34,162 nucleotides of DNA from an uncultured archaeon (GTDB taxonomy: Archaea; Nanobdellota; Nanobdellia; Woesearchaeales; CAIVOO01). A program made the position numbers. Each line of letters begins with the position of its first letter. Position 1 is the first letter of the stretch. Below, piece by piece: positions 9,001 through 21,000 of the stretch. The stretch lies in assembly GCA_903842985.1 (NCBI GenBank), contig CAIMOB010000058.1, positions 1 through 34,162 on the forward strand, read 5' to 3'.

Positions 9001-12000
9001 GATAAGATACACCATATTGTCGGAAAGATTTCTTCTGCAAAGCTGACGCAGACAGCGAAGGCGGAGCTTGAGAACTTTGTGAAGGAAGCTATTGAGAGGG
9101 ATGAGAAGAGGTTTGTGGAGTTTTTCAACACTGCCCAGCCTCTGACAACAAGGATGCACCAGCTGGAGCTCCTGCCTGGACTTGGCAAGAAGCACATGTG
9201 GGAGATAATTGAAACAAGAAAAGAGAAGCCATTCGAATCATTCGAAGACATAAAGAAGAGAGTAAAATTAATGCCTGACCCGAAGAAGATTGTCATAAAA
9301 AGGATTCTTGAAGAACTGACAGGCGACGAGAAGCACAGGATTTTTGTCAGATAAATTTGGACATGTAAGCCCCTTCTTTTTTATAGCCGAGCTTTTTGTA
9401 ATATTCCCTGACGCCGATGCCTGAGATAACTACAATTTTCTTTTTATCATTCAGGTAAGCCATTCTCTCTGCCATATCCAGCAGTTTTTTTCCTATTCCC
9501 TTGTGCTGCACAGCCCCCTCTTCCCCGATGCCTGCTGCAGAGCCATAGACATGCATCTCACGGATGAGTGCGGAATCTTTGGTTATTTCCTTTCTTAATG
9601 TTTGAGACGGGAATCTTAGCCTGCAGAAGCCGAGCAAAACATTATTTTCGGCTGAAATAAATAATTCTTCCCCGCCAGATGCCTTGTACCTGCAAACCTT
9701 GATTGCATAACTGTCAACTTTCTCGTTTCTTATCTCCCTGCATCTTATGCACCTGCATTTAACACCTGTGCTTTTGATTAGTTGCCTAAAATTATTCATT
9801 CCGACGCCTGCAGACGATATTTTTGTCGGGATGTCCCTCTGCACCCTCATGATTCTGCAGTACTCAGGCACTGTTTTCTTGAACTCAGTTATTATTTTTG
9901 CAGCCCTTTCTGTTGTAAGCGCCTTGTATTTCTTGTTTTTCCACAGGTCATAGAGTCTTGTACCCTTCATCACCATGCACGGATAGATTTTGAGCATATC
10001 TGGCTTGAAATTCTCGTCTGAGAAAAGCTTCTTCAATCCATCTAAATCCATTTTTTCGCTTGAGCCTGGAAGCCCAGGCATGTAGTGATAATTTATCTTG
10101 AAACCAAGGTCTTTTAGGGTTTTTGTTGCCTCGATTGTGGTTTTAACATCATGTCCTCTTTCAACTTTCTTAAGGACTTCATCAAAAACAGACTGGACTC
10201 CCAATTCGACTCTTGTGCAGCCGAAAGAAAGCATCTCATTTGCCAATTTTAGGTCTGCATAATCAGGCCTTGTCTCTATCGTCAGCCCAACGCATCTTAT
10301 TTTTGCCTTCTCGTTCTTTTTTTGCTCAGTTGCCAAGATGCACTTTCCTTTTAATTTCTTTAACCTGTCTTGTATCTTCTTTGTCCTTTCGCTGTCTCCC
10401 ACCTTGCCTGGAAGCTCGAAGAATTTCTTGAATTTCATGAAATCAAATTTTTCTTTTTTGTAGAAAAGCTTTGAGAAGTCATTCATTGCCTTAAATGAAT
10501 ATTTTATGAACTCGTTCTTGTAACTCTTCGGGAAGCTCGGGAATGTCCCGCCCATTACTATCAGTTCAACCTTTTCAGGGTTGTGACCCATCACAATATA
10601 CTGCTCTAATCTGTTGAAGACCTGTATGTAAGGGTCATAATTTGCACGGATTGCCCTCATTGTAGCAGGCTCATTCCCTGTGTAGCTCTGCGGAACAGTG
10701 CCAAACTCTGAATCGATTCCGCCGGGGCAGTATATGCATTTTCCGTGCGGGCATTTGAACGGCTTTGTCATTATCGCAACAACTGCAACGCCTGAGATTG
10801 TCCTGGTTGGCTTTGTCAATAATTTATTTTGAAGAAGCGGAAGGTCCTTGTTTTCAGCGTGCGTCAGTATCTCTATGTCTGTCGGAGTCTCCTTTATCTT
10901 GTACTTCTTGCAGAGCTCTGTCTTCAGATGATGGAGATTCTGCTTGTCCAGATTGCCTGATTTTATCTTTTCTATCAATTCGCTGAAAAATTCATCTTTC
11001 ATGGATGTTAATTATGCAGAAAAATTTATAAAACTAGCACTTTTCAATTGTTTTCTTCAAAGAATTTTTACATGCAAACTGCCTGTTGTTCTTCTCTATT
11101 ACTGGCCTTATCTCAAGGTTTCCACCAAAATTGGTGTAATTTATCCTTTCAATCAGGATTCCGCCTTCCTTGACTGGCTTCAGCATTGTTATATTGTTCA
11201 CTATCAATCCGGCAATATCAATTCCGTTGTTTTCAACAGCAATTTTTATTGAAGTTGAATCATAGCAGGAATTTATGTTTTGAATCAGGTTAATCTTTAC
11301 ATCATTTATGCAGATAAGTTTCGCCTCTGCATTTGGAACATCGATGACTGTTCCAGCTGTTATGAATGAGCTGCATCCAGTCAGCAGCAATAAAATCAAC
11401 AAGCTAATCCTTTTCATTTTAACGAACCTCGTGAGTTAAAATGTCCGCAAATCAGCGATTTGCGTCATTTTTTGACCTTGTCTTTCTCTTGACCTTCTCC
11501 ATGTCCCTGATGTGGCTCAGGAAGTATTGAAGGCAGTCCACAGCGCAGAAAGACGCCTTCTTTTTAAAACCTTCCGGTCCAAATATGAGTGTATATGAGG
11601 CGTCATACGGCTCGAGCTCTGCAAAGCAGGTTGTGCAGAACTTCGTGCTGTTGTCAAGCTCCTGCATCTTCTCCCAGATTATTTTCTTCACTTCCCTGCC
11701 TCCCATCCCTATCTCTTTCTCGAACTTTCTCAGTTCGTCGTAATTCCAGTTCTTGATTGCGTCTCTTAGTTTGTCTTTCATTGTGCTTCCAGCGCCTCCA
11801 CCCTCTGCTTCAGGGCGTTGTTTTCTGATTTTAATTCTTCAATCTGCTGCTGCTGTTCCTGAATTGCGCTGATTACCAGCGGGTCAAACGAGCCGTACTC
11901 CATCATGTAATAGCCGTCATCACCTTTTTTAACGAGAGTTGGGACTATGTCTTTGTTTTGCTGTGCAACAAAGCCCATCTGTGTTCCGTTAGGGAAGCTT

Positions 12001-18000: not shown

Positions 18001-21000
18001 AAGCCAGTGGCTGCTGCAGCAACTGTGCTAAGGCATTTATTGCCAACGGCTGTGCAAATGTCTCCTGTTGCGTTTATTCTGCCGGCGACTTCCAGCTTTG
18101 CTGTAGGATTCATAACACCGATGCCGACGTTGCCATTTGTAGCAACAATAGTCAGATATGGTGATGCGGCATTGTTGCGGGCGATGCCCAAATTCTCGCT
18201 GGCTCCATTATGATAGAAATTCCAGGTATTTGTTGAGCCTGCCGCAGAAAGTCTCAGCCCCCCAGCATAGTCATTCGTAGATTGCTTGATGTCTAACTGA
18301 GCTCCAGGGTTCGTAATGCCGATGCCGACGTAACCGTTTGGCTTGATATAAAAACTATTCATTCCATTTACCTGTAACCCATATCCATCATCTGTACCAA
18401 GAAACTGGGAAATTTTAGCAACATTGCTTCTCCAGAACTGAATCATGCCGACGCTTGAACCTGCTGCTGTGTTTGTATTCAATGCAGCCAATGTTCCGCT
18501 GTTAGAACTTACGCTAAGTTTTGCAGTTCCAATGCCTGTTGTGCTAATGCTAACATTTCCAAGCACAAGAACATTTGTATTACCTCCGTTCCTGGCAGAC
18601 AAATGGATGCTCTTGCCTGTAGAAGCCTGAATCCACAAATCACCAACATTATCACAGGTCCCGCTTGCTGCACATTGCACTATTCTTGAAGAAAGAGAAC
18701 CGCTATTGAACCACAGATTGCTCTCTCCTGAATTTGTTCCTGGCTTTATGCCAATGTCGCCAGTCATGTTGCCGGGACCTATTTGGTTTGCAGAGTGTCC
18801 TGGATTCGGTACGTCTGCAAAAGCGATTGCTACAGAAATCAGAAATACGACGAAAAAAAGCAGTTTTTTCATATTTTATACTTATTTTTTTACTTTTTTA
18901 TTTAATCAATTAATTACGAATTTTAATGTATATAAATATACTTATATTTAAAGGTTTCGGAAAAGTTTAATAACAAAGGCAAAAATAACAAAGATATGAA
19001 AATCGCAATAATCGCTTCAAAGAAGGATCCGGCGGGGATGAACATCGCAGAATCCCTGAAGCGTCTCTATCCATTCAAGGCGACAAATTCCAAGTTCGAG
19101 AAAGAGCCAATCTGCGAGCTAGGGTCAGCAAGCATTTACATCACAGAAACAGATTCAGTCTACTGCGAAAATATTGACAAGAAAATAGAAGCAGACCTGT
19201 TCATATTCGCGACAAAGCACCAGTCGCAGACAAAAATTCCTTCATTGAGCGCGCATGCGCCAGGCAACTGGGGAAAGGCAGAGTTCGGCGGAAAAGACAG
19301 GAAATTGTGCATTGCGCCTGCAAATTATTTGAAGGAAGCAATAATCCAATTAGAAAAATTAAACACTCTCGGCTTCGAGGTTGTTCAGGAATGCACGCAT
19401 CACGGCCCCTATCTGGAAAAGCCAGCGATGTTTATTGAAATTGGCTCATCAGAAGAGCAGTGGGGCAACAAGGAAGCTGGAAAAATAATCGCAGAAGTCA
19501 TATACTATCTGGTCACAAATGAAATCCCAGACTACAAAACAGCTTTAGGAATCGGCGGTCTGCATACAACAACAAATTTCAAGAAGATTGTCATGAAAAC
19601 AGACATTGCACTGGGGCATGCCTGCCCGAAATACAATCTGGAAAACTTAGACGAAGAAATGCTTGAGCAGGCATTAATAAAAAGCATAAGGCCTGCAGAC
19701 ATAGTAATTCTTGATTGGAAAGGCTTGAAGGAGCACAAGCAGAAGATTGTCGACCTGCTGAAAAACAGGGATTATACAAGAACAGATAAGTTCTAAGTGT
19801 TCACAAACTTTATATACTGGTTCTTTTCAAACCAAGGATATGAAAAGGCTTGCAATACTCGCGCTGTTGCTGTTCACATCCTGCTCGATGGCTGGATTTT
19901 TCACAGGCAACAATTTCAAGGATGCTGTTAATAAGATAAATGCAATAGACAAGGAAAATGGTATCTCATTATCTGACTATGAAAACGGATTGGAGTATCT
20001 AAGGCTCCACCCAAGATATCCTGACCCGTTGAATATCGAAGAAATTGACCCAATAATAGAAAAATACAGCAAAGTAACTGGCGATGAAGCAGCAAATCTT
20101 TACGTCTCATTCAGGAAAAACCTTCTTTTATCAGAAAAGCATTACATGCTTGCATTCAAGACTTACAAGGGAAATATTGAAAAATACGGCATAAGATGCT
20201 CATACAATGAAAGCATTTTGGAATCATTCTCAAACCAGAACAAGTCAATAAGTTTTGGGACGGACGCTTTAAAAAACATCAAAGAGTTGAAGGAAAAGTA
20301 TCCAAATGAATTCAGCCAGCTGAATATTTCAGACAAATGGCTGACAAACACAAAGAATACATACATAGATACTGAAGGCAATCTTGGGCATCAGAAAGAA
20401 CTTTACAATTATTTCTGCGTTGAAAAGCATCAGAATAACACTCTAAAACAACAGAATAGCACTTAAGCAGCCGGCTTTTTCTCTGACTTTTTCTCTTCTG
20501 TCTTCGCAGCGCCAGGCGCACCAGCAGCTCCGCCGGTTCCGACGATTGTTGCTAATAATTTTGTAATCAATGACTCTGAGATTCCATTTTCTTTTAATCT
20601 TGACTTTATGACGCTCTTCTCCTTGCCTACCAGCGCAGACATTATGTCGTTTGCCTTCTTCTCTTCTTCTGCGTGCCTTCTTGCAACATCTTCTGCCAGT
20701 TTCTTCTTCTCCAATTCAAGTCCCTTAAGGTCGTCTGCAGTCAACTCTGTCTTCTCTGCCTTTATCTCACTGTCATATTTGCCGGAATTAACATCCTGAA
20801 TGGCGTCAACAGCTGCTTTTCCGCCCACAAGAACTCCCATTGAGTTGCATGTGCCGATTATGCACTTGACTTTCTCCTTCAGCGTCCTGCCGCTCAAAGA
20901 ACCGGATTTCATCTTTGCAACCTTGATTATCTGCTCTATCCTCAAGTCAGCAACCTTGTCTGCGTGAGGCATTCCAGAGCCTTTCTCAATTCCTGCCTCT

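What a model noticed while it worked through the whole genome (the two positions that open the first line are those of the whole stretch)
11778..18872. Three secreted phage-tail-fibre homologs encoded among house-keeping genes
Three paralogous 867-948-aa proteins (g00983 C58:11778-14624, g00986 C58:16059-18872, g00596 C33:975-3578) share a signal peptide followed by the motif (D/A)VPNPGHSA and match phage tail-fibre families strongly; g00983 ends in the self-cleaving intramolecular-chaperone domain (Peptidase_S74) of phage tailspikes and endosialidases, and two of them are each followed by a 55-67-aa AbrB-like protein. No other virus gene lies nearby, so I read them as cell-surface fibres that this presumably episymbiotic archaeon uses, phage-like, to recognise and hold its host cell, with paralogs giving alternative receptor specificities. 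It would show recruitment of virus receptor-binding proteins by a cellular [...]
Evidence so far: PHROGs: g00983 phrog_9942 tail fiber 7.9e-45 (5 stretches), phrog_18345 1.9e-25, phrog_5668 1.5e-20 and 22 further families, most of them tail fibre/spike; g00986 phrog_9942 3.2e-33, phrog_18345 4.5e-17; g00596 phrog_9942 9.9e-4. Pfam Peptidase_S74 6.3e-15 at 826-899 of g00983. N-termini MKK..(hydrophobic)..AFA then VPNPGHSA in all three; g00983 vs g00986 29% over 730 aa, vs g00596 36% over 351 aa; g00985 and g00597 are 55-67-aa paralogs. Flanks are exosome, ribosomal, Elp3 and D-aminoacyl-tRNA deacylase genes on C58 and TGT, proteasome ATPase, FEN1 on C33. relatives.tsv: Peptidase_S74 in 68/822 Woesearchaeales, 114/1860 Nanobdellota, 243/10117 archaea. 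1225 database homologs at E<=1e-10, so [...]
(Added by a program. Inside this text positions count along the whole contig: contig position 1 is position 1 of the stretch shown here. "Call 12" and the like, gene names such as g00115 and contig names such as C1 are that model's own, and its searches are not shown. The text may have been shortened before it was handed on; [...] marks where a part breaks off. The agent that wrote the report below was given it as the finding of a first reader that could run no searches.)

Follow-up and report, generated by a model that had tools for sequence, protein, structure and literature searches.

The report
Shuffled adhesive fibres of DPANN archaeon
A tiny, probably host-dependent archaeon keeps three intact genes for exported fibre proteins built like the prey-gripping fibres of the predatory bacterium Bdellovibrio, with interchangeable shaft pieces and a different front end; they are good but untested candidates for how such archaea stick to other cells.

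Summary
The three ORFs, their signal peptides, the VPNPGHSA motif and the S74 domain (one gene only) are real. The proteins are strings of 7-9 G-N-V-G-I-G-T-x-x-P capping-loop repeats. Their closest solved relative is a cellular protein, the Bdellovibrio MAT fibre Bd2133 (E 6e-18, 1e-15, 2e-3); phage fibres match at 25-36% identity. They are not provirus remnants: two lie inside a housekeeping operon, are syntenic in a same-genus genome and show purifying selection. Between the two genomes the gene ends are kept while shaft cassettes are reshuffled across loci; one cassette is 76% identical to CPR-bacterial proteins. The third gene is a cassette duplication into a site that is empty in the relative; the AbrB-like gene is a housekeeping neighbour carried along. 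Unlike MAT fibres they lack the MAT N-terminal domain (proxy test) and begin with a short histidine-bearing module found on secreted proteins in 56 of 301 genomes of the order. Trimerisation, anchoring and host binding are inferred, not shown. Recruitment of phage-fibre parts by cells is known from bacteria, and this scan has noted MAT-like fibres in other DPANN and CPR genomes. Verdict: archaeal variant of a known kind.

The parts
11778..14624 (-). Fibre A, 948 aa: signal peptide, His-cap, N-domain, 9 capping-loop repeats, S74 chaperone and coiled coil
14568..14624 (-). A residues 1-19: Sec-type signal peptide ending AFA (predicted from hydropathy and pattern)
14490..14567 (-). A residues 20-45: His-cap module (VPNPGHSA..VGPGT)
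12150..14111 (-). A residues 172-825: shaft of 9 GNVGIG-type repeats with unrelated inserts
14000..14111 (-). 112-nt block 95.5% identical to 18023-18134 in B (same cassette at a different position)
   Evidence: spanned without difference by one public contig, record 19
11928..12149 (-). Peptidase_S74 intramolecular chaperone, SDERLK with Ser826 and Lys831
14621..15889 (-). beta-CASP metallo-beta-lactamase nuclease, 422 aa; housekeeping gene between B and A
15886..16053 (-). 55-aa conserved protein, possibly AbrB/SpoVT fold; ancestral neighbour of the nuclease gene; second copy follows fibre C
16059..18872 (-). Fibre B, 937 aa: signal peptide, His-cap, N-domain, 9 repeats, non-S74 tip with four Cys
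18738..18872 (-). B residues 1-45: signal peptide and His-cap; DNA 87% identical to the start of C over 107 nt
17433..17741 (-). B residues 378-480: cassette 76% identical over 105 columns to Ca. Paceibacterota proteins MDD4625195.1 and MDD4875495.1
16818..17519 (-). B residues 452-685: region matching the two beta-helix regions and stalk of Bdellovibrio Bd2133 (PDB 8OND), E 6e-18
16839..16982 (-). 144-nt block 88% identical to fibre C (repeat plus GGYKFPDGTTQTTA stalk)
16062..16325 (-). B residues 850-937: tip domain, kept in the same-genus orthologue, no family or fold found
18873..18995 (.). A+T-rich divergent intergenic region with TATA-like boxes (read by eye); part of it is copied upstream of fibre C (78% over 199 nt including the signal-peptide codons)
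11452..11781 (-). 109-aa conserved protein whose start overlaps the stop of A; ancestral downstream neighbour of the nuclease gene
18996..19796 (+). archaeal D-aminoacyl-tRNA deacylase, divergent flank

Best explanation
A, B and C are chromosomal, Sec-exported homotrimeric beta-helical surface fibres that work like Bdellovibrio MAT adhesins. Steps: (1) B and A are co-transcribed with housekeeping genes (inferred from overlapping stop/start codons). (2) The chain is exported and cut after AFA (predicted), leaving the His-cap at the N-terminus. (3) Three chains wind into a fibre from the C-terminus; in A the S74 domain guides folding and cuts itself off at Ser826 (family knowledge; motif shown), while B and C use other tips. 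(4) With no membrane anchor in the mature chain, the conserved His-cap is the likely cell-proximal docking piece (inferred by analogy to the MAT N-terminal domain). (5) Shaft cassettes bounded by the conserved repeat are exchanged by recombination between paralogs and with other organisms (mosaic pattern shown; mechanism inferred), which changes length and the surface clefts presented. (6) The fibres bind surface glycans or proteins of other cells, most likely the host (inferred). Odds: exported trimeric fibre about 0.85; adhesin to other cells about 0.6.
For: Repeat equals the MAT capping-loop consensus (PMC10769870 passages). Best PDB match of all three is MAT Bd2133: B 6e-18, C 1.3e-15, A 1.8e-3. 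S74 with SDxxxK at the C-terminus of A. N-terminal hydrophobic segment in all three and none elsewhere; in related repeat proteins 33 of 51 cellular but 4 of 62 viral ones have it. Same-genus genome G001 has both C58 genes at the same sites: 12 flanking proteins 78-99% identical, fibres 37% and 39%, ends kept, cassettes moved between loci. dN/dS 0.30 over 338 alignable codons. His-cap proteins elsewhere carry domains of trimeric fibres: S74, Peptidase_G2 (below cut-off), collagen, YadA head, T4 gp36-like (just below cut-off). MAT fibres were shown to be surface-exposed and one bound prey glycans.
Against: No structure of these proteins was obtained: the one tip model had pLDDT 32. No anchor is identified, so the proteins could be shed. 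No host, ligand or expression data. The same repeat proteins occur in many bacteria not known as symbionts or predators, so the architecture does not by itself imply host recognition. Most genomes of the order lack a detected His-cap protein (245 of 301) and three of five same-family genomes had no match to A, so these fibres cannot be the general attachment device. Single MAT deletions in Bdellovibrio had small effects.
Confidence: 0.6

Rival explanations
1. They are surface fibres, but for attachment to particles, biofilm matrix or kin, or a variable coat or decoy against viruses and grazers, not for host recognition.
For: Rapid cassette turnover is also what escape from viruses would produce. 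Relatives occur in free-living Bacteroidota and others. Patchy presence in the order.
Against: The only members tested by experiment act in prey contact. The genome is 0.88 Mb at 93% completeness, in line with a host-dependent life.
Confidence: 0.25
2. They are released, soluble trimers (lectins, depolymerases or scaffolds) that act away from the cell.
For: Cleavable-looking signal peptide and no transmembrane segment in the mature chains. No MAT-type N-terminal domain.
Against: No enzyme domain detected. A conserved N-terminal module joined to many unrelated cargos is what a docking piece looks like. Shedding 300-kDa trimers is costly for a reduced genome (inference).
Confidence: 0.1
3. They are remnants of a provirus or parts of a tailocin-like particle.
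For: PHROG tail-fibre matches; the repeat is common in viral contigs (443 confirmed stretches of 644); a neck-like motif in C matches viral proteins.
Against: No virion genes among 45 neighbouring ORFs; no integrase or terminase family match in the genome (93% complete); intact frames, synteny and dN/dS below 1; signal peptides are rare in viral copies; the His-cap query confirmed no locus in viral contigs (0 of 73 candidates).
Confidence: 0.04

Closest known systems
Bdellovibrio bacteriovorus MAT (mosaic adhesive trimer) fibres, S74 (Bd3182) and non-S74 (Bd2133, Bd1334) groups; Caulton et al. 2024, PMC10769870
   Same: About 1000 aa, signal peptide, capping-loop repeats, beta-helix and stalk region homologous to Bd2133, S74 and non-S74 ends in one paralog set, mosaic build.
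   Different: Archaeal host; 3 copies rather than 21; no MAT-type ~130-aa N-terminal domain, a short His-cap instead; shafts rather than tips differ most between orthologous loci; genes inserted in a housekeeping operon; nothing tested by experiment.
S74-bearing phage tail fibres and tailspikes (K1F endosialidase, T5 L-shaped fibre; cyanophage and pelagiphage fibres in GenBank)
   Same: S74 intramolecular chaperone, the same repeat, 25-36% identity over parts.
   Different: Phage copies mostly lack signal peptides and lie among virion genes; no phage record covers 80% of A or B.
Secreted repeat fibres of CPR bacteria, Bacteroidota and others (unstudied; often annotated 'tail fiber domain-containing protein')
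   Same: Same repeat and cassette pool; one cassette 76% identical to Ca. Paceibacterota proteins.
   Different: Other N-terminal domains; the His-cap at the N-terminus was seen only in archaeal records among those that carry a name.
HxH metal-binding knots of phage and pyocin fibres (T4 gp37, gp12, R pyocins; PMC6116203 passages)
   Same: Internal copies of the His-cap module in other fibre proteins have HxH in 19 of 83 cases.
   Different: N-terminal copies have one His (114 of 118 have His, 1 has HxH), so a six-His iron site cannot form; no PDB match for the module.

Membership tests
MAT fibres | N-terminal signal peptide | tested here: met
   Hydropathy 2.4, 3.3, 3.3 in the first 60 aa, A-x-A end; no dedicated predictor was available
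MAT fibres | Conserved ~130-aa beta-rich domain directly after the signal peptide | tested here: not met
   Proxy profile from 16 cellular repeat proteins finds two held-out Bdellovibrionales proteins (6.5e-16, 4.9e-11) and two other fibres of this order (1.5e-19, 3.8e-19) but not A, B, C (best E 0.86) nor any of 55 His-cap proteins (best 0.08). HD100 sequences themselves were not available, so the profile is a stand-in.
MAT fibres | Capping-loop consensus repeats flanking beta-helix segments | tested here: met
   9, 9 and 7 repeats matching the published consensus; homology to Bd2133 and Bd1334 chains
MAT fibres | C-terminal S74 or exchanged non-S74 tip within one paralog set | tested here: met
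   A: S74; B and C: different Cys-bearing ends without S74
MAT fibres | Mosaic composition | tested here: met
   DNA blocks of 55-254 nt at 74-96% identity shared between paralogs, several at non-equivalent positions
MAT fibres | Homotrimeric fibre | not testable with these tools
MAT fibres | Surface display and binding to prey or host glycans | not testable with these tools
   No experiment possible
Peptidase_S74 intramolecular chaperone | Pfam match above cut-off, SDxxxK dyad, C-terminal position with coiled coil | tested here: met
   52.3 bits vs cut-off 22; SDERLK at 826-831; heptad-like end by eye
Peptidase_S74 intramolecular chaperone | Autocleavage after trimer folding | not testable with these tools
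   Shown for Bd3182, not for A
Provirus tail-fibre gene | Lies among virion, packaging or integration genes | tested here: not met
Provirus tail-fibre gene | No export signal; decay if the provirus is dead | tested here: not met
   Signal peptides present; frames intact; dN/dS 0.30
AbrB/SpoVT swapped-hairpin regulators (55-aa gene) | beta-beta-alpha-beta-beta swapped-hairpin fold | tested here: inconclusive
   Model pLDDT 82 with that order of elements; Foldseek lists Sso7c4 (2L66, titled SpoVT-AbrB) at E 1.3, nothing at E <= 0.001; best VIA Z 3.1; no profile hit. Dimer not modelled.
DGR-diversified target | Variable repeat matching the genome's template repeat at non-adenine positions | tested here: not met
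   The DGR on C54 matches only its own target; no match in A, B or C at up to 8 non-A mismatches
HxH metal knot | Two histidines, HxH, per chain | tested here: not met
   Single His26 in A, B, C; HxH only in internal copies of the module elsewhere

The most novel reading that the evidence does not exclude
DPANN archaea have their own class of exported trimeric adhesins, marked by an N-terminal His-cap that docks them on the cell through an unknown, possibly metal-dependent, contact. Their shafts are rebuilt from a cassette pool shared with CPR bacteria and viruses, so host range of these symbionts would be reset by cross-domain exchange of 60-100-aa cassettes at the repeat-coding DNA.
Probability: 0.25. 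Interest if true: 0.75.

Novelty: new variant of a known kind. Interest (0 to 1): 0.48.

Why it matters
How DPANN archaea recognise and hold their hosts is open. These genes give concrete, expressible candidates with a solved bacterial model, and the His-cap gives a search handle for a family (846 clusters at 50% identity) that has no Pfam or PDB match. If the fibres bind particular cells, labelled tips could be used to fish for the unknown hosts of uncultured Woesearchaeales. The principle itself, cells using phage-fibre parts as adhesins, is already published for bacteria.

Tried and rejected
AlphaFold2 monomer of the B tip with a two-row alignment: pLDDT 32, not used for fold search. Atlas search of the B tip: no usable hit; of a His-cap segment from another protein: best 0.91 to small unnamed clusters, one viral, a lead only. 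His-cap profile against PDB: only chance-level hits, best E 0.04. Homologue search with B 18-180: only A and B, so the N-domain after the cap is lineage-specific or too divergent. Fibre-specific role of the 55-aa gene: rejected; 0 of 26 other loci have an A- or B-like gene within 1.5 kb, 19 of 26 have the nuclease, deacylase or 109-aa gene, and 1 of 26 has a His-cap gene (three loci from unpublished genomes left out). DGR diversification of the fibres: rejected. Direction of transfer: S74 of A is 37% / 31% / 39% identical to the best viral / bacterial-set / archaeal copy, and most inserts had no hit in 1.46 Mb of fetched loci, so no donor can be named; no tree was built. Expression: no RNA holder listed. 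Bacterial-type promoter and terminator scan: at chance level and not suited to archaea. Public contigs of four DNA runs of one study are short and shallow and show no alternative cassette orders that can be trusted. Literature: searches and term look-ups in four papers found no description of such fibres in DPANN; subscription journals are not covered, one supplement of PMC10769870 was unreadable, and bioRxiv supplements were closed.
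Full report
Observation. The window holds two long minus-strand ORFs, A (11778-14624, 948 aa) and B (16059-18872, 937 aa); a third, C (867 aa), lies on contig C33 at 975-3578. 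All start with a basic, hydrophobic segment ending AFA, followed by (D/A)VPNPGHSA. Pfam finds Peptidase_S74 at A 826-899 (E 7.2e-14) with SDERLK at 826-831; B and C have no Pfam domain. The PHROG values reproduce, but 20 of A's 25 families have a best stretch that includes the S74 region and the other 5 hit a short repeat; C has one match at E 9.9e-4. The neighbours are archaeal housekeeping genes. PHROG scanning of 45 ORFs on C58 and C33 found no virion or packaging gene apart from C itself and one weak hit that NCBIfam assigns to MarR regulators. Integrase (PF00589) and terminase (PF03237) searches of the genome, 93% complete, were empty.

Anatomy. Each protein is a string of G-N-V-G-I-G-T-x-x-P-x-x-x-L repeats (9 in A, 9 in B, 7 in C counting variants) separated by inserts of roughly 40-160 aa. 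Caulton et al. 2024 (PMC10769870; I read matched passages, sections 12 and 16, and parts 4-5 of supplement 1) describe this motif as the capping loop of trimeric beta-helices in the Bdellovibrio MAT fibres. The best PDB match of all three proteins is MAT Bd2133 (8OND): B residues 452-685 at E 6e-18, C 288-428 at 1.3e-15, A 156-217 at 1.8e-3; B also hits 8OML (Bd1334) at 4.3e-3. The match includes the G-x-K-F-P-D-G..QTTA stalk. Phage records match A and B only in part, at 26-36% and 25-32% identity in the rows listed (33 and 29 records). The mature chains have no transmembrane segment (best 19-residue hydropathy 0.9-1.2). As a control, among loci holding the same repeat, 4 of 62 viral and 33 of 51 cellular ORFs had an N-terminal hydrophobic segment of 2.0 or more; 16 of 78 viral and 26 of 77 cellular loci were dropped because no start or no repeat ORF was visible. 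A, B and C score 2.4, 3.3 and 3.3.

Setting. B, the 55-aa gene, a beta-CASP nuclease, A and a 109-aa gene run head to tail with one 5-base gap and three ATGA overlaps, which suggests one transcript with Elp3 further on (inference). In two other genomes of the family the deacylase, 55-aa, nuclease and 109-aa genes stand in this order without fibres (L044, L067), and in a third a 269-aa secreted protein with the same N-terminal motif fills B's slot (L043). So the fibres were inserted into an older operon. The 55-aa protein is present in 156 of 301 genomes of the order (six of these are unpublished genomes, 150 of 295 without them). In 26 other loci it never had an A- or B-like gene within 1.5 kb, and in 19 it had one of the three housekeeping neighbours. 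Its model has the strand-strand-helix-strand-strand order of AbrB proteins, but fold searches were not significant.

Evolution. The same-genus genome G001 has both C58 genes at the same places. Twelve flanking proteins are 78-99% identical; the fibres are 37% (948 vs 671 aa) and 39% (937 vs 780 aa). Kept per locus: the signal peptide, the motif, and the tip type (S74 at A, a four-cysteine tip at B). Changed: nearly all inserts. Shared DNA blocks lie at non-equivalent positions and cross loci: A 172-208 with B 247-283 (95.5% over 112 nt), B 631-678 with C 378-424 (88%), C 690-754 with G001 B 461-525 (78%), A 259-306 with G001 A 396-443 (82%). Both G001 genes have the N-domain type of C, while A and B share another type. 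These shaft blocks begin or end in the repeat, though the repeat's conservation would extend alignments into it anyway. One public contig spans A's copy of the 95.5% block with both flanks and no difference (record 19), which argues against an assembly chimera there; the runs come from one study and may be the source. Alignable blocks at the two orthologous loci give dN/dS 0.30 over 338 codons, against 0.03-0.06 for four housekeeping genes; choosing alignable blocks biases this downward, and one C/G001-B block gave 1.1. Gene C lies in a 2.9-kb insertion (C33 846-3753): G001 has the aminopeptidase and TGT genes overlapping at this site. The insertion starts with DNA 78% like the B upstream region and ends with a copy of the 55-aa gene (87%), so it reads as a duplicated B cassette whose shaft was later rebuilt; G001 is 64% complete, so a C-like gene elsewhere in it is not excluded. 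One B cassette (378-480) is 76% identical over 105 columns to two Ca. Paceibacterota proteins and 69-70% to three others. The repeat is widespread in CPR, Bacteroidota, Bdellovibrionota, Woesearchaeota and viral contigs. No donor can be named.

The N-terminal module. A profile of signal peptide plus motif found 56 of 301 genomes of the order (two are unpublished genomes). In 55 ORFs examined (56-6422 aa, including query members), 51 have a hydrophobic segment before the motif and 38 have the repeat. Pfam on 48 of them shows S74, Peptidase_G2, collagen, YadA head, beta-helix, Kelch, Hint and T4 gp36-like domains in some, and nothing in 33. A profile of the motif alone matched 846 clusters at 50% identity; of the top 149, 117 carry it near the N-terminus behind a hydrophobic segment, and others carry it internally and repeated. 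Named carriers are archaeal: 15 of 15 loci in genome contigs (titles as given by submitters) and two Aenigmarchaeota clusters among 10 looked up (a further 10 look-ups gave no organism). A narrower query confirmed none of 73 viral candidates. A phylum-wide sample gave 26 of 251 genomes, 4 of them outside the order with weak scores that I did not inspect. The His is nearly invariant in N-terminal copies (114 of 118; partly by construction of the profile), and internal copies have HxH in 19 of 83, like the metal knots of phage and pyocin fibres (PMC6116203, passages). A proxy profile of the MAT-type N-terminal domain detects Bdellovibrionales proteins and two other fibres of this order but not A, B or C. 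The His-cap therefore looks like a fibre shaft module that has become the first module and stands where MAT fibres have their conserved domain.

Mechanism. Shown: intact genes, export signal pattern, MAT-type repeats, S74 motif, synteny, mosaicism, duplication. From family knowledge: S74 domains drive trimer folding and cleave themselves. Inferred: trimers for B and C, docking through the His-cap, binding through clefts on the beta-helix cassettes, and a role in host contact. In S74 MATs the cleft lies on the beta-helix before the chaperone; that cassette differs between A and its G001 counterpart, so specificity could change although the tip type is kept. I put adhesion to other cells at about 0.6, other surface roles at 0.25, a released factor at 0.1 and a viral remnant at 0.04.

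Comparison and novelty. They work like MAT fibres and meet the repeat, tip and mosaic criteria, but fail the N-terminal-domain criterion in a proxy test, so I file them as a variant, not as members. The published list of MAT proteins outside Bdellovibrio has 13 entries, all bacterial, and my searches found no paper on such fibres in DPANN (search listings; passages or one section). In PMC11329633 the antenna-like structures are on the host. Earlier notes of this scan report MAT-like fibres in other DPANN and CPR genomes and cassette swaps at the same motif in a Bacteroidota genome; these are unchecked notes, and my reading was written before I saw them. What this case adds is the two-genome comparison, the empty-site duplication, the cassette shared with CPR bacteria and the His-cap family. 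Interest 0.48.

Noticed in passing
G000 C54:27701-29278 and C13:1-726 (locus L178): A diversity-generating retroelement: reverse transcriptase (336 aa), template repeat at C54:28746-28833, and a non-secreted target gene seen as two variable-repeat alleles at the end of C54 and the start of C13, differing from the template almost only at adenines; the assembly breaks there.
   Followed up: partly
G000 contigs C2, C4 (twice), C6, C8, C9, C32, C51, C52, C54, C57: A 20-bp palindrome, GTTGTAGCGATCGCTACAAC, at 11 sites with up to 4 mismatches, mostly just upstream of gene starts and TATA-like boxes; a likely regulon operator. None on C58 or C33.
   Followed up: partly
window 15886-16053 and C33:3587-3754: The 55-aa protein is 74-88% identical across distant families of the order, present in about half of the genomes, has no family match and usually sits near a beta-CASP nuclease or the D-aminoacyl-tRNA deacylase gene; a candidate undescribed regulator or nuclease partner.
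   Followed up: partly
C33:845-856 and 3744-3756 (L001): The two ends of the fibre-C insertion share an imperfect 10-11-base repeat that resembles the empty site in G001; possible microhomology-mediated insertion (read by eye).
   Followed up: no
L001:3240-3410 (fibre C about 770-800): A motif ITNLADP..PQYAATKNYVD matches viral proteins at 52-55% over 31-34 aa; it recalls the neck motif of trimeric adhesins (recalled, not confirmed by Pfam).
   Followed up: partly
L118, L127, L117: His-cap proteins of 6422, 3319 and 2233 aa in other genomes of the order, with up to about 30 repeats; the 2233-aa one has a Hint domain near its end and another member (L148) an intein.
   Followed up: no
L113, L125, L143: Tandem arrays of three His-cap genes in three other genomes, one set carrying right-handed beta-helix domains.
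   Followed up: no
G000 C13:998-4830: A DNA gyrase A gene read as two ORFs with an intein-like insertion, in an archaeal genome (by eye).
   Followed up: no
window 21300-21818 vs L032:3324-4422: G001 has a nucleoside diphosphate kinase-like gene (by eye) between the 172-aa gene and ribosomal L11 that the window lacks; the window has a 104-aa ORF at 21844-22158 not seen in G001.
   Followed up: no
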